Assembly (NCBI GenBank): GCA_964456405.1
Contig: CAYVZB010000001.1
Location: 24,601-88,600, forward strand
From: an uncultured Candidatus Saccharibacteria bacterium
Lineage (GTDB): Bacteria; Patescibacteriota; Minisyncoccia; Phycocordibacterales; DATGWK01
DNA: 64,000 nt
Direction: 5' to 3'
The notes beneath the pieces are model-generated. The model was not told the DNA's origin, did no database searches, and was given only the letters and a program-made list of their open reading frames with translations. Below, piece by piece: positions 56,044 to 64,000 of this stretch; the stretch's first letter is position 1, and every line of letters begins with the position of its first letter. Made by a program: the position numbers and the translations under genes.

Positions 56044-56191
56044 ATTAGAGAATTATACCATTCCCCGTAGGAGTGGGTTTCAACCAGCCCTTCAGGAGGG
56101 CGCCGTCGATTTCTACTGAAATCGCGGCTCCTCTCGGCTCGTCAGCCTGCGAGACCCTCCATTCAGGGCTGGTTGGGAGAAAGGAAATACA

Positions 56192-56376
56192 ATACAAATG
56201 CATTTGTATTCCCTTCCCAAACCACCACTTCGAGAGAGTGAGGAGCGGGACGAGCCGGTGCGTCAATGCCCGAGCGAAGCGAGTGGCTTGACGCGAGTCC
56301 GAGCGACGACTAGTAAAATCCTCCGCTGGGAGGATTTTACGCTCTCGAGAAGTGGTGGTTAAAAAATTGCTATAAT
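56192..56376 (+). repeat. structured intergenic repeat, copy 2 (same element as 50846-51001, with a 29 bp internal expansion; ends TGcTATAAT six nt before the ATG)
   Basis: Shares the palindromic 5' edge atacaaatgcatttgtat, the terminal inverted repeats, the internal hairpin and the 3' ttgctataat. Carries an extra agcgagtggcttgacgcgagtccgagcga. Confidence 0.8.
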
Positions 56377-56382
56377 ATCCCC

Positions 56383-57361: not shown

Positions 57362-57433
57362 GGCCCTATCGTCTAACGGTTAGGACAGTGCCTTCTCAAG
57401 GCATAAATCGGGGTTCGATTCCCCGTAGGGTCA
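57362..57433 (+). tRNA. tRNA-Glu (anticodon CUC)
   Basis: 72 nt cloverleaf folded by hand. Acceptor ggcccta/tagggtc, D-arm gtct/ggac, anticodon stem gtgcc/ggcat with loop ttCTCaa, T-arm cgggg-ttcgatt-ccccg, discriminator A. No encoded CCA. Confidence 0.8.
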
Positions 57434-57468
57434 CAACTAAGGCCGATGCGGAGGCCTAGAAATAAACC

Positions 57469-57705
57469 GTGAGGACACAAAAAGCAAAATTTAAAGAAGG
57501 TGAGATTATTAAAAATCTTCATAATAATTTTCAGCGAATTATTCGCCGGATTGCTTATGTGGAAAAGAATGGAATGCTTGAAGTGCGCTACTTCTACTCT
57601 GGTGAAAAGCTAGATGATTCTTTGAAACCAACTGGTCGTTTTAGTGATGAGATAGCTGGCAATTGTAGCCAGACCACCATGCTGAATTGGCAGAAAAAAC
57701 AATAA
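57469..57705 (+). CDS. hypothetical small protein (78 aa)
   Basis: AT-rich ORF between the tRNA and the recombinase. No motif recognised. Confidence 0.3.
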   Translation: MRTQKAKFKEGEIIKNLHNNFQRIIRRIAYVEKNGMLEVRYFYSGEKLDDSLKPTGRFSDEIAGNCSQTTMLNWQKKQ

Positions 57706-57707
57706 TT

Positions 57708-59027
57708 CTATTCCAAACCTAACTTTTTGTCCCTTAATAGTATTCTGCTCTTGATACAACTTAGTATTTCTCGTTTTTGAAGCATCGTACCATGTCGTAG
57801 CATATGTTTGGCAAATGTTTTTATGGAGATATCTTTGTGTTTTTTTGACTGATTTAAATCAATCCCAAGCACCCCGCTCTGAAATAAAGCATACCTCGCT
57901 ACTTCCTCTTCCAGTTTCTTTTTCAGCTCGCTCTTGTCCATGCTCATCTTGTCGATGATCAGCATAACTTCGTCTATGAGTATCGATTCCTTGACCGATT
58001 CGTTCTGGCATTCTCGGTTCTTCACTTTCGTACATCGGTAGTAGACGTGGGTGTTCGAGCCCCCATCTTTCAGCTCTTTTATCTTTTCTTCCGCCGTTAT
58101 GCCCGACTCGCAGTAGGCGCAGTGAAGCATTCTCGTGAATGCGAACTCTCTACCGTACGCCTTCTTTTTCTCGACTTTTATTTTTTCCTGTACTGCTTCA
58201 AATAATTCTCTCGATATGATCGGCGTGTGTTTGCCTGTGTACCATTCGCCGCTATCCTCAGGGTATTCGAACACTCCGTAATAGAAGGTCATTCTAAGTA
58301 TTCGATATATGTTGCCAAGTGTGACATATTTCCCATTCTTATTCTTGAAATCGATTTCCTTGAGCCATTTGTATATTTTTCGGCCAGAATAATTTTCGTT
58401 TGCCACTTTCTCAAACATTTCCTTGATGATTGGTGCTCTCTTTGAATCCACGATCACTTGGCATTTTTCATCCTTATTCTTGCTATTAAGGTAGCCAGTC
58501 GGTGCCATCGACGGCCGAAGTCCCATGGCCGCCCTCGTTCGCAATCCTCGCTTTACGTTGATCACCTTGTTGTCGTTTTCAAGCTTTGCCTGTGATCCGA
58601 GAATCATCAGCATGAACTTGTCGTTCGGCGTGTTCGTAAATTTCTGCCCGTAGGTTCGTATCTCGATGAGTTTTTTCTGGTCCATCAAGTCCACAACTCT
58701 GCCGAGGTCGCCTGCGTTTCGGGCGATTCGGTCTGGTGCCCATGTAAGAATGCCATTGTATTTTCCTTGCTTGAGTTCCTCCACGATCTCGTTGAAGACT
58801 GGCCGCTGTCCGGCTTCCTTCGCTGAGTGAGATTCTTTCTTCGTGACCACGATTTCTAATCCATCAGCAACTGCCATTTTCTCCATTTCTTTAATTTGAG
58901 AGTCGATAGATAGAACTTGCTTATCCTCTTGTTCCGTACTTTTTCTGGCGTAAAGGCAGTACGAAAGCCTTACGGGGCTTGCTGGTTTGGCCGTAGCCCC
59001 AGACGGCGCTGTGGTTGCATATGTCAT
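57708..59027 (-). CDS. large serine recombinase (resolvase N-domain, recombinase domain and zinc ribbon); the track start at 59084 is less likely
   Basis: LYARKSTEQ catalytic-Ser motif, DRIARN, a recombinase-domain block and a C-terminal CAYCESG...YYRCTK zinc ribbon. About 440 aa. Confidence 0.8.
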   Translation of the reverse strand: MTYATTAPSGATAKPASPVRLSYCLYARKSTEQEDKQVLSIDSQIKEMEKMAVADGLEIVVTKKESHSAKEAGQRPVFNEIVEELKQGKYNGILTWAPDRIARNAGDLGRVVDLMDQKKLIEIRTYGQKFTNTPNDKFMLMILGSQAKLENDNKVINVKRGLRTRAAMGLRPSMAPTGYLNSKNKDEKCQVIVDSKRAPIIKEMFEKVANENYSGRKIYKWLKEIDFKNKNGKYVTLGNIYRILRMTFYYGVFEYPEDSGEWYTGKHTPIISRELFEAVQEKIKVEKKKAYGREFAFTRMLHCAYCESGITAEEKIKELKDGGSNTHVYYRCTKVKNRECQNESVKESILIDEVMLIIDKMSMDKSELKKKLEEEVARYALFQSGVLGIDLNQSKKHKDISIKTFAKHMLRHGTMLQKREILSCIKSRILLRDKKLGLE

Positions 59028-59135
59028 ACATACACATTGATGACACAACCCCTCCGGGGAGTCCAGGCTCCCCAGAGTTAGCAACTATTTCTCCAAATAT
59101 TCAAATATACTTACGATCCGTATAGAATCGCCCGA

Positions 59136-60397
59136 GGTGCAAACGGTTTTGGGTGGCCACTTAACCACATAAAACAATGAATAAAATGTTAACTTATAGT
59201 CAGTACCTTAAACGAACAAAAGAATTGAAGACTCCGGAGGATGTTGCTGCATTCGCGCAGGAGTTAATCGCTCCTTTTGTTGGAAATGTAGTCAAAGAAG
59301 AGCCTGTTTCTGTGAGCGAAGAAGCCGCCGGTAGCTTGGCGGCTTCTATTGAGGAAACTCCCGCACCTGTAAAACAGAAATATAATCGCAGGAATCCGTA
59401 CGCGATCGAGCAGGTCAATCCGTGGCACGATGTCGCAAGTAACGAGACTGAGCTCATGGTAATTGATCTCTATGCAAAAGGTCTCACCACTCGAGACATT
59501 GTGAATCACTTAAAACGCAGTCATGGCATCGAACTATCACAACCAACAATCTCAAACATCACCGATAAGGTATTTCCTTTGGTGAAAGAATGGCAGTCGC
59601 GAGCGCTCTCGTCATGCTACCCAATATTGTACCTCGATGGCATGCACTTTAAGGTACGCGAGGCAGGCAAGATTGCTTCCAAGGTGGCATATATTGCTCT
59701 GGGCATAAATCAGTTTGGGCAAAAGGAAGTTCTCGGTATGTGGATTAGCGAGACTGAGGGCGCAAAATTCTGGATGCACGTCTTGAATGACCTCAAGAAT
59801 CGCGGTGTGGATGATATTCTCATTGCCTGCGTTGATGGTCTCAAAGGATTCCCGGAAGCAATCAAAGCAATGTATCCACACACAGACGTTCAAGTATGTA
59901 TCGTTCACCAGATCAGGCATACGGTCATGTTTATCGCAACAAAGGATAAGGACCAATTCTGCATTGAACTTAAATCTGTTTACAACGCTCCAAGTGAACA
60001 AGCGGGACTCGATGCACTTAAAGACATGATGGAACGATGGCCGCAGTATCGGGCATATCTCAAAAGTTGGGAGACGCGATGGTCTGATATCGCTCCGTTC
60101 TTCAGCTATCCGCAGTCAGTTCGTAAGACGGTCTACACCACAAATGCGATTGAAAACTTAAATCGCCAATTCAGAAAGGTAACAAAGACAACCCAAATCT
60201 TTCCTCATGATGACGCACTACTGAAATTGCTCTGGCTCGCCCAAGCTGATCTCACACAGAAATGGGTTCTCGGGACACGTAATTGGTCGGAAGTTATGGC
60301 ACAACTTAGCATCATGTTCCCAGACCGCGTTCACTTCTAGTCACTAAACAAATCAGAAAAATTAATTAACGTGGCGCATTCAAAAACGTTTAGCACC
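59136..60397 (+). mobile_element. IS256-family insertion sequence (~1.26 kb)
   Basis: Imperfect terminal inverted repeats GGTGCAAACGGTTTTGGGTGGCCAC (59136-59160) and the reverse complement of 60371-60397 (GGTGCTAAACGTTTTTGAATGCGCCAC), flanking one transposase gene. No clear target-site duplication. Confidence 0.6.
59177..60340 (+). CDS. IS256-family (Mutator-type) transposase
   Basis: 387 aa. YLDGMHFKVR, IACVDGLKGFPEAI and CIVHQIRH blocks are typical of the IS256 DDE transposase. Confidence 0.85.
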   Translation: MNKMLTYSQYLKRTKELKTPEDVAAFAQELIAPFVGNVVKEEPVSVSEEAAGSLAASIEETPAPVKQKYNRRNPYAIEQVNPWHDVASNETELMVIDLYAKGLTTRDIVNHLKRSHGIELSQPTISNITDKVFPLVKEWQSRALSSCYPILYLDGMHFKVREAGKIASKVAYIALGINQFGQKEVLGMWISETEGAKFWMHVLNDLKNRGVDDILIACVDGLKGFPEAIKAMYPHTDVQVCIVHQIRHTVMFIATKDKDQFCIELKSVYNAPSEQAGLDALKDMMERWPQYRAYLKSWETRWSDIAPFFSYPQSVRKTVYTTNAIENLNRQFRKVTKTTQIFPHDDALLKLLWLAQADLTQKWVLGTRNWSEVMAQLSIMFPDRVHF

Positions 60398-60531
60398 TGG
60401 CAAAAAATCGTGGCCTAGAGCTGCGGTTTTTTGTTTTAATATAAAAATCGGGATAATTGACATGTGTATTTTTTTACTATATGGTATTGACCAGACAGTT
60501 ATTTCATAACACAATTCACAAGGAGTCAGAA

Positions 60532-61512
60532 ATGACTATTCTCGATGCGATGCAAACCGTTCTAAAAAGTGGCTGCGGAATTTCGTTCGAGGAAGCAGTC
60601 CGCTCGGAGCGGTATGCTGAGCTCGAGTCTCAATTCAAGTCTCTGCCCAAGTGTTTTCCAGCCAGAACCCATCGGGGTATCGCTCTACGCGCTGGTCATC
60701 TACAAATGGGTCGCCTTCTCAACACAACAAGTGAGAGGGGGGCGATCAAGCTTCCTCGGTCCGTTCAGTCAGAATTTGGTCGCGGTCAAGCAATGGCGCC
60801 GCTCGTCCAATTGGTGGGCGAGTGTCTCGTCAAAGCCGCGGCTGAGTGCCTACCGGATGACGTGGTTGCTTTGGCCAAGGAATGGCGTGAAGCTGATGTC
60901 GATCGTCAGATCGAAATTGCTCGGACGCTTTTCTTCAGATTCAACTCTGAAGGCCAGCGTCACGACGAGGAGTTTCATCTGGACACAGTGACTCAGAACA
61001 TCAGCAAAAGGATTTTGATGAACGAGCACGCGAGTGAGAGAATTTTGCCGAAGCAGTTTGGGATGTGGGATCCAAAAACCTGCATTGCCAACTGCCAGGG
61101 CAAGACTCAAATGCTCACTGCGTTCGGCCGGCTTGCCGGAACCGATGTTCTCGCTGTTAGTCCGCTCACGACCGCACATGAGGTCGTCGAGGGCTGGCGA
61201 TCGATCGTGGCAGACAGAATCCGCGAAGACTTGGCTCAAAGGAAGATCGAATTCCCCGAGCCGGTTTTCATGGACAGTCTGAAAGCCTACGAAATCGACA
61301 AGGTGTTCAGTGATTTCGATTCACACTTTCACGTCGGCGCGGCTCTGAAGCTGCGAGATGGACGGTGGGTGCTGATCGATTCGCACGCGATGAGTTGGGG
61401 CGTGTTTACCCCCGACTGGCATCTTGAGAGAATCGTTGGCTTGCTTGATAAGTACGGAGTGGTTCTTCCAGGCATTCATTTACTTGGTCACAGCTACGAA
61501 GCTCGTGACTAA
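60532..61512 (+). CDS. hypothetical protein with a possible transglutaminase-like Cys-His-Asp core
   Basis: 326 aa from the ATG at 60532, with AAGGAG 6 nt upstream. ANCQGKTQMLTAFGRLAG (Cys), HVGAALKLRDGRWVLIDSH (His...Asp) spacing resembles the transglutaminase-like cysteine protease superfamily. GC-rich. Confidence 0.5.
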   Translation: MTILDAMQTVLKSGCGISFEEAVRSERYAELESQFKSLPKCFPARTHRGIALRAGHLQMGRLLNTTSERGAIKLPRSVQSEFGRGQAMAPLVQLVGECLVKAAAECLPDDVVALAKEWREADVDRQIEIARTLFFRFNSEGQRHDEEFHLDTVTQNISKRILMNEHASERILPKQFGMWDPKTCIANCQGKTQMLTAFGRLAGTDVLAVSPLTTAHEVVEGWRSIVADRIREDLAQRKIEFPEPVFMDSLKAYEIDKVFSDFDSHFHVGAALKLRDGRWVLIDSHAMSWGVFTPDWHLERIVGLLDKYGVVLPGIHLLGHSYEARD

Positions 61513-61515
61513 CAC

Positions 61516-62154
61516 TTGAAGGTCATTACCGCAAAGGTTGATGACCTCTTGGCTCACTCCCGAAAACTTGAGCAGCTCACGGCTTCGGTCAAGTCGGTTC
61601 CCAATTTGCTCGAAGTCTTCGCCACAAGCGGCGAAGCACTCTACATCGCAAACGCTACGCGAGGCGAGTCGGAACCAGTCAGTGATACTCCGGGTGGCGA
61701 GGTGTCTCGATTCGTGGCAACAAAAATGATCGCGGGTGAGTCAGCGGCGGAGACAGTGCGATTTGTCGCACTGTCAAAGACCGACCCAACCCTGATCCGA
61801 AAGAAAATTGGGTCGATCCTCACGTTCTACCACGCTCTAGCAATGGAGTGTGCAAAGAATCAGTTGACTGACGCGGGCAAGTTAATTCATCCGGAGTGTG
61901 AATTCGCTTTGGCTGAGTACAACATTGCCGTGTCGGCAATCAACTCGATCATTCCGGAGACCACAATCGAAAGTCAGCACTTCTTCCTCAACTACACCTT
62001 CAACCAGATGAGTCTCTTCAATTCGCTTAGTGAGTTCCGACCGAAGTCTTGGAGAGACAATGATCCCAAGATTGCGATCGCTGCGGCACAGGCCTTGGAG
62101 GTCATGCCGTTTGTCCATCCGCTTGCGCAACGCGCCTTGCGGTTTGTCCGCTAG
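61516..62154 (+). CDS. hypothetical protein (212 aa, apparent TTG start, translationally coupled to the upstream gene)
   Basis: Long GC-rich ORF beginning 4 nt after the upstream stop. No family motif recognised. Confidence 0.45.
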   Translation: MKVITAKVDDLLAHSRKLEQLTASVKSVPNLLEVFATSGEALYIANATRGESEPVSDTPGGEVSRFVATKMIAGESAAETVRFVALSKTDPTLIRKKIGSILTFYHALAMECAKNQLTDAGKLIHPECEFALAEYNIAVSAINSIIPETTIESQHFFLNYTFNQMSLFNSLSEFRPKSWRDNDPKIAIAAAQALEVMPFVHPLAQRALRFVR

Positions 62155-62183
62155 TCAGTCTGACAAAAGAAAGGAGGTAAAAA

Positions 62184-62423
62184 ATGATGAAAGATCCAGA
62201 AAAACTTTCTCCAGGCGCTCGTGAGATTGCTGACAAGCTCGGGCTTAACGGAGATGTTGCTGAATACATTCAGAAACATCCCGAGTCCATCGGCTCTCTC
62301 AACGAGTACATCGAATGGCGAGAGCATGAAAAGGTCGCTGTTAGCCAAACGGCGGCTGTGCCAAGCATCAAACATCCTCTCGTCGATGCTCTCAAGAAGA
62401 GAGTCTCGGCTGTCCCCATGTGA
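62184..62423 (+). CDS. hypothetical small protein (79 aa)
   Basis: AAAGGAGG sits 6 nt upstream of the ATG, and a strong terminator lies at 62428-62464. Confidence 0.55.
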   Translation: MMKDPEKLSPGAREIADKLGLNGDVAEYIQKHPESIGSLNEYIEWREHEKVAVSQTAAVPSIKHPLVDALKKRVSAVPM

Positions 62424-62427
62424 ATCG

Positions 62428-62464
62428 TGAACCGCAGGTCTTCGGGCTTGCGGTTTTTTTATTT
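62428..62464 (+). terminator. rho-independent terminator ending the GC-rich cargo operon
   Basis: aaccgca-ggtcttcgggc-ttgcggtt followed by ttttttt. Confidence 0.6.
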
Positions 62465-62468
62465 ATAT

Positions 62469-62508
62469 AAAAGAAAACCGCCCCTCAACGTTGTCGCGGA
62501 AGGGCGGA
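62469..62508 (-). terminator. candidate terminator for the convergent minus-strand gene
   Basis: ccgccc...gggcgg stem with an inner caacgttg palindrome. An A-tract on the + side gives a T-tract on the minus strand. Confidence 0.45.
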
Positions 62509-62525
62509 TTGTGTTCGTTGCCGAG

Positions 62526-62936
62526 TTACGCCCGGCTGAACATCCTGTTCGCGTTCATCATGCTGTCCTCGTACGGATCAGCGATACGGAAGAACAGCTC
62601 GGAACTGTGGATGGACTCGCCGTTGGAGCAAGGCACGAATGTGCTCTTGTTCTCATCGACGCGCAGTCCCAGCTCCTGCTCCATGAAGACACGCAGGTCC
62701 TTCCAGGTTGTCTGGACACAGCGGCCAAGCCAGACCTGGCAGTCCGGGAAGACCATGACGATCATCCCGTTGTTGGCGTTCCACTTGCCAGCGTCCTGGT
62801 AGCTCCCCTGAATGGGGGCAGACTCGCTCCTTGCCGAGCCTTGATCCTTGTAGGCCGTGAGGCCGGTGACATGAACGAACCCGAACATCCGAAGTTTATT
62901 CAGATGTTCCATCGACAGTTTCTGAAACGCGGTCAT
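62526..62936 (-). CDS. hypothetical protein (136 aa from the ATG at 62936; the track start at 62981 is a TTG)
   Basis: GGAG sits 8 nt upstream of the ATG at 62936. GC-rich. The overlapping + strand ORF 62427-63071 runs across two terminators and is rejected. Confidence 0.45.
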   Translation of the reverse strand: MTAFQKLSMEHLNKLRMFGFVHVTGLTAYKDQGSARSESAPIQGSYQDAGKWNANNGMIVMVFPDCQVWLGRCVQTTWKDLRVFMEQELGLRVDENKSTFVPCSNGESIHSSELFFRIADPYEDSMMNANRMFSRA

Positions 62937-63080
62937 AAAAAGAACTCCAAAAGTGGATGCCCGTTGGTACTCCAGCGACAAAGTGTCGTTGCAAGCCCAT
63001 TGGTACTTCCTGCGATATTATGCATCAGGTTGGTTTTTAAGTCAATCCCACGTAATGCTTCAATCGCCTAGTGGTAAAAT

Positions 63081-63728
63081 ATGCAAATAATGAAACTAAA
63101 ATTTGAATATAGTAAAGAAAAAGATATTTGGTGCTTGTTAAATAAAGGGAAAAGCTCGAAGAACTCCCCATTGCCCACCAAGGTATATTCAGAACTGGTA
63201 ACGGCTTATGGGGAAAATCCTGATGAAATTTCGACGTCTAAATTTATCGACGAACATCTCATCGTGAATAATGTGGACATCACGGAACTTCTGAAAAATT
63301 ACCAAAAAGAGTGGAGTATAGTTTCCAACGAATTCGAGAAAATTGCAGAAAGAATTTTTGGCGTGTCTCTCGAAAAAGAAATTACAGTATATCTAACCAT
63401 AAACAACAGGTGTCCATACAGCGTCGAAGAAAATTGGTTTTTTGTTTCAATCTCAAAAAATTCTCCGGTCAAAACAATAATGCACGAAATCTGGCATTTT
63501 TATACATGGTATAAATTCGGCGTCGTTGAACATGAAAGACTGGGAGCCGAAAAGTACAATGACGTAAAGGAAGCTTTGACTGTTTTGCTGAATATTGAAT
63601 GTAAGCATCTATTACCTGAAGGAGTAGAAGATAAAGGTTACCACCAGCATCAAGAATTAAGAGCTAAAATTTTAGAACTCTGGAAGCAAAATCCTGACAT
63701 TCAAAATGTGTGGAGAAAACTTTTGTAA
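63081..63728 (+). CDS. hypothetical protein with an HExxH motif (possible zinc metallopeptidase)
   Basis: 215 aa, AT-rich. IMHEIWHFY contains HExxH. Confidence 0.4.
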   Translation: MQIMKLKFEYSKEKDIWCLLNKGKSSKNSPLPTKVYSELVTAYGENPDEISTSKFIDEHLIVNNVDITELLKNYQKEWSIVSNEFEKIAERIFGVSLEKEITVYLTINNRCPYSVEENWFFVSISKNSPVKTIMHEIWHFYTWYKFGVVEHERLGAEKYNDVKEALTVLLNIECKHLLPEGVEDKGYHQHQELRAKILELWKQNPDIQNVWRKLL

Positions 63729-63768
63729 AGAAAAAACCCAGATGTGTTGTGACACACCTGGGTTGGCC
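63729..63768 (-). terminator. hairpin plus T-tract on the minus strand (3' region of the gene ending at 63881)
   Basis: aaaaaa-cccagatgtg-ttgtg-acacacctggg. The reverse complement ends in ttttttc. Confidence 0.4.
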
Positions 63769-63880
63769 TTCACGCCCTTTCGGGCGGGTAAACCTCTTGG
63801 TCTGGACTACATGGCCATCGTCCAGATTGCATCCTAGCGCACGCCTAGGATCGTACCAGTTCAATGAAAAGAACTGGTTG

Positions 63881-64000
63881 TTTGCCTGACGTCAGGCCTT
63901 GGCGTGGCGATCACGCGAGTTGCTCGCGGTGCCATTGCTGGCGCCGACGAGTTCCTCCTCGTGCTCACCACCCTCATCGCTCTCGTTCGCCGCGCTGCCG
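63881..64000 (-). CDS. C-terminal fragment of a GC-rich gene continuing beyond the window (...DEGGEHEEELVGASNGTASNSRDRHAKA*)
   Basis: Open minus-strand frame to the window edge, with its stop at 63881-63883. GC content is very high relative to the rest of the window. Confidence 0.4.

What the first reader, a model, noticed from the sequence alone, without database searches (positions are those of the whole stretch)
60457..62464. GC-rich three-gene cargo operon: transglutaminase-like Cys-His-Asp protein, 212 aa partner and a 79 aa protein with a perfect SD
Three co-directional GC-rich genes sit immediately downstream of the IS256 and end at a strong terminator. The first has AAGGAG-6 nt-ATG and a transglutaminase-like catalytic spacing (C in ANCQGKTQML, H in FHVGAAL, D in LIDSHA). 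The second is coupled 4 nt downstream with a TTG start. The third has AAAGGAGG-6 nt-ATG. A transglutaminase-like protease with small partners carried on a mobile element could be an effector/immunity or toxin-type module of unknown specificity.
Basis: inference. Interest (0 to 1): 0.5.

Follow-up and report, generated by a model that had tools for sequence, protein, structure and literature searches.

The report
Split transglutaminase-like enzyme gene plus partner
The "three-gene operon" is really a two-gene unit found only in tiny Patescibacteria: one uncharacterised ~540-residue cysteine enzyme, cut in two here by a premature stop codon, and a small ~80-residue partner. It was acquired as foreign DNA, and its substrate is unknown.

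Summary
The sequence features are real: promoter-like site, two strong ribosome-binding sites, a terminator, high GC and the three motifs. The gene count is wrong.

- **One gene, not two.** ORF1 (60532-61512) and ORF2 (61516-62154) share a frame and are separated only by TAA + CAC. All 23 close homologues found, and 13 of 14 other genomic loci, encode one 517-574 aa protein colinear with ORF1+ORF2.
- **The stop is real.** TAA is this genome's commonest stop. It is identical in all five contigs that carry this allele, and no intact allele was found.
- **Partner is constant.** The 79-aa ORF3 has a homologue directly downstream in 14 of 14 other loci with downstream DNA.
- **Foreign, not IS cargo.** The unit lies outside the IS256 inverted repeats. 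Its GC3 is 0.61 against 0.35 for host genes, and neighbours vary between genomes.

Verdict: an undescribed Patescibacteria enzyme-plus-partner module, here probably inactivated. The toxin or effector reading is untested.

The parts
60457..60485 (+). Promoter-like site TTGACA-17 nt-TATGGT upstream of the enzyme gene
   Evidence: 10 of 12 consensus matches. Most homologous loci also show a TTGACA-type hexamer upstream. This is a consensus match only; function is inferred.
60520..60525 (+). Ribosome-binding site AAGGAG, 6 nt before the ATG at 60532
   Evidence: Read directly from the sequence.
60532..62154 (+). One interrupted gene for a ~540-aa transglutaminase-like Cys-His-Asp enzyme (ORF1, in-frame TAA, ORF2)
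   Evidence: Single frame with one internal stop. The homologues are single 529-565 aa proteins colinear with it. The gene is intact in 13 of 14 other genomic loci.
60532..61512 (+). ORF1: N-terminal helical domain plus catalytic core, 326 aa, ending at the premature TAA
   Evidence: Matches family profile positions 1-324. Catalytic codons: Cys188 at 61093-61095, His267 at 61330-61332, Asp283 at 61378-61380. Their conservation is shown.
61510..61512 (+). Premature in-frame TAA at the boundary between the catalytic and C-terminal domains
   Evidence: It aligns with a variable column, most often Lys or Glu in homologues. The column falls three residues into the helix that opens the C-terminal domain of the model. 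Identical in assemblies from three samples. TAA ends 29 of 49 long ORFs in the window.
61516..62154 (+). ORF2: C-terminal helical domain of the same enzyme, 212 aa from a TTG with no ribosome-binding site
   Evidence: Matches family profile positions 332-537. Keeps every invariant C-domain residue of alignment A1. No more diverged than C-domains of intact homologues: ratio 0.76, family range 0.70-0.85. Codon-position GC remains coding-like.
62170..62177 (+). Ribosome-binding site AAAGGAGG, 6 nt before the ATG at 62184
   Evidence: Read directly from the sequence.
62184..62423 (+). Small partner gene, 79 aa, soluble and predicted to be mostly helical
   Evidence: A homologue lies directly downstream of the enzyme gene in all 14 other distinct loci that have downstream DNA. 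Ala12, Pro33 and His64 are invariant; Ser9, Leu35, Glu41 and Trp45 are in at least 90%. No Pfam or PDB match.
62429..62466 (+). Intrinsic terminator: 12-bp stem, 4-nt loop, T-run
   Evidence: Most homologous loci show a hairpin plus T-run after the small gene.
59130..60401 (+). Context only: IS256/Mutator-family insertion sequence (transposase 59177-60340), next to the module but not containing it
   Evidence: Pfam Transposase_mut, E 6.7e-85. Imperfect inverted repeats at about 59130-59165 and 60366-60401. Single copy in the window.
57362..59084 (.). Context only: tRNA-Glu(CTC) 57362-57434 (+), a 78-aa ORF, and a large serine recombinase 57708-59084 (-). Probable left edge of a genomic island.
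   Evidence: tRNA. (Resolvase, Recombinase and Zn_ribbon_recom domains). GC stays above the host level from here to beyond the window end.

Best explanation
The locus is a self-contained two-gene transcription unit, acquired by horizontal transfer. It belongs to an undescribed family that, in the named records, is confined to Patescibacteria.

Gene 1 normally encodes one soluble ~540-aa enzyme with three parts:
- an N-terminal helical domain;
- a papain/transglutaminase-like catalytic core, with Cys188 at the start of a helix and His267 and Asp283 on neighbouring beta-strands;
- a C-terminal helical domain packed against the core.

Gene 2 encodes a ~80-aa partner that always follows it.

Inferred mechanism: the Cys-His-Asp triad forms a thioester (acyl-enzyme) intermediate with a protein or peptide substrate. 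It then hydrolyses or transfers the acyl group, acting as a protease, amidase, transamidase or acyltransferase. The C-terminal domain and the small protein would supply substrate recognition or regulation. The working analogy is vasohibin, a transglutaminase-like protease that needs its small helical partner SVBP.

In this window a point mutation has put a TAA at the linker between catalytic core and C-terminal domain. Most probably a Lys or Glu codon was changed. The full-length enzyme is therefore not made. The copy is most likely a recently inactivated gene, with the small gene left intact.

Shown: gene structure, the split, triad conservation, partner linkage, foreign composition. Inferred: chemistry, the partner's role, loss of function.
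For: - **Single gene.** One frame with a single internal TAA. The 23 close homologues are 529-565 aa and colinear with ORF1+ORF2. The gene is intact in 13 of 14 other distinct genomic loci.
- **Real stop.** TAA ends 29 of 49 long ORFs in the window and TGA also serves as a stop. The only tRNA in the window is tRNA-Glu(CTC), so there is no suppressor. All five contigs that carry the allele, including assemblies from three samples, have the stop.
- **Fold and triad.** AlphaFold model of the intact homologue P0008: pLDDT 91.5, pTM 0.90, with helix(Cys)-strand-helical hairpin-three strands(His, Asp). His and Asp are invariant and Cys is in at least 90% of 129 representatives. Cys, Gly, His and Asp are invariant in the core alignment.
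- **Partner.** A homologue sits directly downstream in every locus with downstream DNA.
- **Autonomy and foreign origin.** Nearly every locus has a terminator after the small gene, and most have a TTGACA-type promoter hexamer upstream. GC3 is 0.61 against a mean of 0.35 (maximum 0.53) for 36 other long ORFs; the same excess appears in five other genomes. No neighbour is conserved apart from the partner.
- **Soluble.** No hydrophobic segment.
Against: - A core-only model gave only helical noise.
- Substrate and reaction type are unknown.
- The partner's role rests on gene linkage alone.
- ORF2 shows no extra divergence and sits exactly at a domain boundary. A working split enzyme is therefore not excluded.
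Confidence: 0.6

Rival explanations
1. Conflict module (toxin-antitoxin, defence or effector-immunity). The enzyme would be a toxic protein-modifying or proteolytic effector, and the small downstream protein would neutralise it. The premature stop would then be a disarmed toxin.
For: - It is an autonomous two-gene unit, with a terminator in nearly every locus and a promoter-like hexamer in most.
- Its composition is foreign in six genomes.
- Its neighbours vary and include a type I restriction-modification system plus a diversity-generating retroelement, a phage terminase plus DNA methylase, and serine recombinases.
- The enzyme gene is disrupted independently in a second lineage.
- The small gene stays intact here, with a perfect ribosome-binding site.
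Against: - No hit in PADLOC, PHROGs, Pfam or NCBIfam for either protein.
- No recognisable DNA-binding domain in the small protein.
- No signal peptide, secretion-linked domain or polymorphic-toxin architecture.
- Absent from the phage, plasmid and IMG/VR collections.
- Other loci sit beside ordinary genes such as an ABC transporter, RsgA and sortases.
- Toxicity has not been tested.
Confidence: 0.22
2. Working split enzyme. The catalytic half (ORF1) and the C-terminal domain (ORF2) would be made as separate polypeptides and assemble non-covalently. ORF2 would be started at the TTG by ribosomes that have just terminated 3 nt upstream. That gives three functional proteins.
For: - The stop falls in a variable linker column, three residues into the first helix of the C-terminal domain.
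- A TTG lies 3 nt after the stop.
- ORF2 keeps all invariant residues, is no more diverged than in intact homologues, and keeps coding-like GC by codon position.
- The allele is the only one seen for this lineage, on all five contigs that carry it.
Against: - No ribosome-binding site precedes ORF2, whereas ORF1 and ORF3 have strong ones.
- No other lineage has this split. The one candidate, P0125, is a contig-end fragment.
- The three assemblies compared are 100% identical over 5-7 kb, so they represent one genotype and say nothing about how long the allele has persisted.
- A recent nonsense mutation would look exactly the same.
Confidence: 0.15
3. The small protein is the enzyme's substrate rather than its cofactor. 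It would be cleaved or cross-linked near its invariant His and its often Lys-rich C-terminal tail, as a processed or conjugated small protein.
For: - The gene linkage is strict.
- An invariant His, usually preceded by a small residue, sits near the C-terminus. It follows a poorly conserved stretch and in about half of the homologues is followed by a basic tail.
- Enzymes of this fold cleave or form amide bonds on proteins (PMC10318531).
Against: There is no direct evidence. The basic tail is missing from the window's own copy and several others. No known modifier family matches.
Confidence: 0.1
4. Artefact or recoding. The internal TAA would be an assembly error, or would be read as an amino acid in this organism.
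For: Some Patescibacteria lineages use altered genetic codes (general knowledge).
Against: The three assemblies from different samples that were compared have identical sequence. TAA is the commonest stop of long ORFs here, and TGA is also a stop. The only tRNA in the window is tRNA-Glu(CTC), so no suppressor tRNA is present.
Confidence: 0.02

Closest known systems
Transglutaminase-like cluster of papain-like cysteine enzymes (Pfam PF01841 Transglut_core and relatives; 'cluster III' of PMC10318531: vasohibins, menin, arylamine N-acetyltransferases, PNGase, NTAQ1)
   Same: - Residue order is Cys (start of a helix), then His, then Asp on adjacent strands; all three are conserved.
- One family member comes close to the Transglut_core threshold.
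   Different: - No significant sequence match for the window protein; the family is absent from Pfam and NCBIfam.
- A ~45-residue helical hairpin is inserted between the Cys helix and the His strand.
- It carries large family-specific N- and C-terminal helical domains.
- It has an obligate small gene partner.
- In the named records it is restricted to Patescibacteria.
Vasohibin-SVBP (tubulin detyrosinase plus small vasohibin-binding protein)
   Same: A transglutaminase-like cysteine enzyme that works with a small helical partner of about 66-80 aa (PMC9108980). This is a functional analogy only.
   Different: - Vasohibins use a non-canonical Cys-His-Leu/Ser triad; here it is Cys-His-Asp.
- Vasohibins are eukaryotic.
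- Binding of the partner is not shown here.
[quoted passage not shown]
   Same: An uncharacterised Patescibacteria/CPR family recognised as a transglutaminase-like protease only through structure.
   Different: - Profile searches against PDB sequences gave no significant match of any kind, so no CPR-C4 relationship was detected.
- CPR-C4 is a 221-aa homodimer with a Cys-His-Leu triad and a zinc site, with no partner protein.
- It is described as highly conserved, whereas this family is rare and patchy.
BtrH_N / CtaG-type papain-like acyltransferases and amide synthases
   Same: Non-significant Foldseek and HMM matches to CtaG (9qvl, 9qvk) cover the His-Asp strands. They are a reminder that the fold can transfer acyl groups as well as hydrolyse.
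   Different: The E-values are 1.2-3.0 and therefore not significant. The domain architecture differs, and the loci examined show no carrier-protein or biosynthetic genes.

Membership tests
Transglutaminase-like / papain-like cysteine enzyme superfamily | Catalytic Cys at the N-terminus of an alpha-helix, followed in sequence by His and Asp (or Asn) on adjacent antiparallel beta-strands | tested here: met
   In the model of P0008 (pLDDT 91.5), Cys193 opens helix 193-207, His272 opens strand 272-278 and Asp288 ends strand 284-288. The window equivalents are Cys188, His267 and Asp283.
Transglutaminase-like / papain-like cysteine enzyme superfamily | Triad residues conserved across the family | tested here: met
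   His and Asp are invariant and Cys is in at least 90% of 129 representatives that are 16-55% identical to the reference homologue. Cys, Gly, His and Asp are invariant in the 25-sequence core alignment.
Transglutaminase-like / papain-like cysteine enzyme superfamily | Sequence match to PF01841 Transglut_core at or above the gathering score (23 bits) | tested here: not met
   The window ORF1 has no Pfam hit even at E <= 1. The best family member, P0024, scores 21.6 bits, E 2.7e-4, over residues 139-282. Only 2 of 25 close members and 1 of 75 distant members give any hit.
Transglutaminase-like / papain-like cysteine enzyme superfamily | Significant structural similarity to a solved member | tested here: inconclusive
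Transglutaminase-like / papain-like cysteine enzyme superfamily | Cysteine-dependent hydrolase or transferase activity | not testable with these tools
   Needs biochemistry.
Vasohibin-SVBP-type enzyme-partner pair | A dedicated small helical partner protein | tested here: inconclusive
   Gene linkage is strict, in 14 of 14 other loci. Physical binding and a chaperone role cannot be tested here.
Vasohibin-SVBP-type enzyme-partner pair | Homology to vasohibin, with its non-canonical Cys-His-Leu/Ser triad | tested here: not met
CPR-C4 family (PMC9108980) | Sequence or structure relationship to the solved CPR-C4 protein | tested here: not met
Type II toxin-antitoxin or known anti-phage defence system | Match to a known toxin, antitoxin or defence family, or an antitoxin with a DNA-binding fold | tested here: not met
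   PADLOC gave no hits for any of the ORFs. The small protein has no significant Pfam or PDB match.
Type II toxin-antitoxin or known anti-phage defence system | Toxicity of one component that is neutralised by the other | not testable with these tools
   Needs expression experiments.
IS256 cargo or composite transposon | The genes lie between the IS inverted repeats, or between two IS copies | tested here: not met
   The IS inverted repeats end at about 60401, 56 nt before the module's -35 hexamer. There is no second IS copy in the window. DNA to the right of the window was not searched for one.

The most novel reading that the evidence does not exclude
The enzyme and its small partner form a new, horizontally mobile conflict or host-interaction system specific to Patescibacteria. 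A protein-modifying transglutaminase-like enzyme would be held in check or targeted by its ~80-aa partner. The system would live in a GC-richer mobile gene pool. That would explain why copies only 26-51% identical to each other still look compositionally foreign in many separate low-GC hosts. On this reading the domain-boundary split here would be either a disarmed toxin or a working two-chain variant.
Probability: 0.2. Interest if true: 0.6.

Novelty: new variant of a known kind. Interest (0 to 1): 0.35.

Why it matters
Patescibacteria make up a large share of bacterial diversity, and most of their proteins have no assigned function. This work defines a compact enzyme-plus-partner module in them:
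- at least 318 sequence clusters at 50% identity;
- no Pfam or NCBIfam family;
- a confident structural model and an invariant Cys-His-Asp centre;
- a strictly linked small partner.

That makes it a tractable target for biochemistry. Its repeated appearance as foreign DNA, and its repeated disruption, suggest an accessory and possibly costly function. Such a function could bear on how these epibionts deal with hosts, phages or each other.

For annotation the practical lesson is that the '326 aa + 212 aa' pair in public records is one broken gene.

Tried and rejected
- **Curated libraries.** Pfam, NCBIfam, PHROGs and PADLOC on all ORFs gave no credible hits.
- **PDB sequence searches.** The full-length, core-only and small-protein profiles gave nothing significant.
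- **Altered genetic code or suppressor tRNA.** Rejected.
- **Assembly error.** Rejected.
- **A second, independent split.** P0125 (214 aa, C-half only) is a fragment at the end of a 929-nt contig. P0072 and the other short hits are also fragments. P0180 (343 aa) is the same allele with a different start call.
- **IS256 cargo.** Rejected from the positions of the inverted repeats.
- **Phage or plasmid carriage.** No relatives in IMG/VR, INPHARED or PLSDB.
- **tRNA-derived direct repeat marking the island's right end.** None found within 14 kb.
- **Homologue search with the 79-aa protein alone.** It found only itself; the partner family was recovered from synteny instead.
- **Literature.** No paper links transglutaminase-like proteins with Patescibacteria apart from CPR-C4, which is a different family.
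Full report
**1. What is in the sequence**

- A promoter-like TTGACA-17-TATGGT sits at 60457-60485.
- AAGGAG lies 6 nt before an ATG at 60532.
- AAAGGAGG lies 6 nt before an ATG at 62184.
- A 12-bp hairpin with a T-run sits at 62429-62466.
- GC is about 0.53, against 0.40 for the first 56 kb of the window.
- The motifs ANCQGKTQML, FHVGAAL and LIDSHA are present. Their Cys, His and Asp codons are at 61093-61095, 61330-61332 and 61378-61380.

**2. ORF1 and ORF2 are one gene**

- Translating 60532-62154 in a single frame gives 326 residues, one TAA, His, and then the 212 residues of ORF2. ORF2 is therefore not a separate coupled gene.
- A search of 5.8 billion proteins with ORF1 found itself plus 23 relatives. 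All are 529-565 aa, 37-45% identical, and have no Pfam domain.
- They align colinearly with ORF1+ORF2 (alignment A1).
- In 14 other distinct genomic loci, 13 carry one uninterrupted ORF of 517-574 aa.
- ORF1 matches family profile positions 1-324 and ORF2 matches 332-537.

**3. The stop codon is genuine**

- TAA ends 29 of 49 long ORFs in the window. TAG and TGA are also used, so the standard code applies.
- The only tRNA in the window is tRNA-Glu(CTC).
- Contigs assembled from three samples (two ENA, one SRA) are 100% identical to the window over 5-7 kb, including the stop.
- The 90%-identity cluster holds only this allele. A 343-aa 'variant' is the same sequence with an earlier start call.
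- No intact allele of this lineage exists in the collection. The next best hit is 45% identical.

The TAA aligns with a variable column where homologues most often have Lys or Glu. A single transversion from AAA or GAA would create it. In the model the column lies three residues into the helix that opens the C-terminal domain.

ORF2 keeps every invariant residue of A1. Its divergence relative to the N-half (ratio 0.76) lies inside the family range of 0.70-0.85. Its codon-position GC is still coding-like. The mutation is therefore either recent or tolerated.

There is no ribosome-binding site before the TTG at 61516. Any ORF2 product would depend on re-initiation after termination. That is an inference.

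**4. What the protein is**

An AlphaFold2 model of the intact homologue P0008, built on 25 sequences, is confident: pLDDT 91.5, pTM 0.90. It has three parts.
- An N-terminal helical domain, residues about 1-170.
- A mixed alpha/beta core. Cys193 opens a helix. A strand and a ~45-residue helical hairpin follow. Then come three strands carrying His272 and Asp288.
- A C-terminal helical domain from about residue 329.

Conservation of the triad:
- A profile search of 1.84 billion cluster representatives found 318 related clusters, 122 of them at E <= 1e-30. Nearly all are 500-700 aa.
- In an alignment of 129 of them, only 16-55% identical to P0008, His272 and Asp288 are the only invariant columns. 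Cys193 and Gly195 are in at least 90%.
- In a 25-sequence core alignment Cys, Gly, His and Asp are all invariant.

Fold assignment is moderately supported:
- A published classification places these in one cluster of papain-like proteins with vasohibins, PNGase and NTAQ1 (PMC10318531).
- Foldseek found nothing significant. Its list is nevertheless dominated by Rad4/XPC, transglutaminase 2, factor XIII, the putative cysteine protease 3isr, UCH enzymes and N-acetyltransferases.
- One member, P0024, scores 21.6 bits on Pfam Transglut_core over residues 139-282, just under the 23-bit cut-off.
- The window protein itself has no Pfam, NCBIfam, PHROG or PADLOC hit. PDB sequence searches are empty.

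I conclude that this is an undescribed family with a transglutaminase-like Cys-His-Asp core. The chemistry is inferred, not shown.

**5. The small protein**

- An HMM built from four small ORFs found a homologue directly downstream of the enzyme gene in every locus with downstream DNA. That is 14 of 14 distinct loci besides the window's own.
- The gap is usually 20-45 nt, and the two genes overlap in one case.
- The family is 72-98 aa and soluble. Conserved motifs are LSPxA, PEL..GLDEY..W and an invariant His near the C-terminus. About half of the homologues end in a basic tail.
- It matches nothing in Pfam or the PDB.

The conserved unit is therefore enzyme plus partner.

**6. Context and mobility**

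To the left lie tRNA-Glu (57362-57434), a large serine recombinase (57708-59084, minus strand) and an IS256/Mutator-family element. The IS has imperfect inverted repeats at about 59130-59165 and 60366-60401. The module starts 56 nt beyond the right repeat, so it is a neighbour of the IS and not its cargo.

GC stays above host level for at least 8 kb past the window's end. The module therefore sits in a mosaic island whose right edge was not found.

Evidence of foreign origin:
- The enzyme gene has GC3 0.61, against a mean of 0.35 and a maximum of 0.53 for 36 other long ORFs in the window.
- The same excess, 0.2-0.27, appears in five other low-GC genomes.
- These copies are only 26-51% identical to one another. 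That combination is unexplained.

Other points on context:
- Nearly every locus has a terminator after the small gene, and most have a TTGACA-type promoter hexamer upstream.
- No neighbour apart from the partner is conserved.
- Neighbours include a type I restriction-modification system and a diversity-generating retroelement, sortases, a branched-chain amino-acid ABC transporter and RsgA, and a phage terminase with a DNA methylase.
- All named records are Patescibacteria, apart from one short contig binned as Bdellovibrionales. All are annotated 'hypothetical protein'.
- Nothing related was found in IMG/VR, phage or plasmid collections.
- In one other lineage the enzyme gene is cut at about residue 385 and followed by a 326-aa ORF with a weak HTH_32 match, right at the contig ends. 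This looks like an insertion.

**7. Interpretation**

- **Best reading (0.6).** A horizontally acquired accessory enzyme-partner unit. A Cys-His-Asp centre acts on a protein or peptide amide bond, and the C-terminal domain and small protein provide specificity or control. The window copy has been knocked out by a nonsense mutation. The vasohibin-SVBP pair is the nearest functional analogy (PMC9108980), but there is no homology to it.
- **Conflict module (0.22).** A toxin-antitoxin or defence-type system.
- **Working split enzyme (0.15).**
- **Partner as substrate (0.1).**
- **Artefact or recoding (0.02).**

These readings are not all mutually exclusive.

**8. Verdict**

- The transglutaminase-like idea is supported.
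- The three-gene and IS-cargo readings are wrong.
- The toxin or effector idea is open.

The family is new as a family but belongs to a well-known catalytic kind, and the copy in this window is probably broken. Interest is moderate.

Noticed in passing
window 56044-56382: A 339-nt GC-rich (0.52-0.57) intergenic stretch lies between RmuC and a YqeY-like gene. It folds far better than shuffled controls on both strands: z -8.2 on plus, -9.6 on minus. It has no Rfam match even at E <= 0.1, and no tmRNA was called. Candidate unannotated structured RNA.
   Followed up: partly
window 62526-62936 (-): A 136-aa minus-strand ORF runs convergent to the module. Its GC3 is 0.80, higher than the module's, and it has its own promoter-like site (63045-63017) and a hairpin. 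Public gene callers disagree here: one aa on the plus strand, another 136 aa on the minus strand. Codon-position GC favours the minus-strand gene. It has no family match and no homologue in the other module loci.
   Followed up: partly
window 57362-64000 and L001 13470-20981: tRNA-Glu followed by a large serine recombinase, an IS256-family element and at least 14 kb of DNA above host GC looks like a mosaic genomic island. Its right end lies beyond the window. No repeat of the tRNA 3' end was found within 14 kb.
   Followed up: partly
L001 14423-17765 (about 65.0-68.3 kb in window numbering, outside the window): A 3.3-kb stretch with no called gene lies inside the GC-rich island, upstream of a DinG-like helicase.
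   Followed up: no
window 60421-60447 and 62447-62473: Similar 26-27-nt sequences flank the module on both sides: CTGCGGTTTTTTGTTTTAATATAAAAA and CTTGCGGTTTTTTTATTTATATAAAAG (families D1 and I1). They could be two look-alike terminator tails or an insertion scar.
   Followed up: no
L022 4995-6176 and L024 4001-6230: A second disrupted allele of the enzyme gene (393 aa, protein P0044, listed in 47 blocks of the contig collection) is followed by a 326-aa ORF with a weak HTH_32 match. The contigs end there, which suggests an insertion sequence inside the gene.
   Followed up: partly
L004 1-5153 and 11201-12592: In the Patescibacteria genome that carries the intact homologue P0008, the module sits beside a complete type I restriction-modification system. 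It is also 3.5 kb from a reverse transcriptase plus bAvd pair, which is a diversity-generating retroelement.
   Followed up: no
L017 307-3509 and L018 510-3766: In two genomes the module lies within about 600 nt of a phage terminase large subunit and a DNA methylase. L018 also carries a serine-recombinase fragment 4 kb downstream. This suggests a prophage setting.
   Followed up: partly
loci L009, L010, L011, L013, L014 and the window: The enzyme gene keeps GC3 0.47-0.61 in hosts whose neighbouring genes have GC3 0.25-0.39. Yet the copies are only 26-51% identical to each other. Deep divergence combined with unameliorated composition is unexplained.
   Followed up: partly
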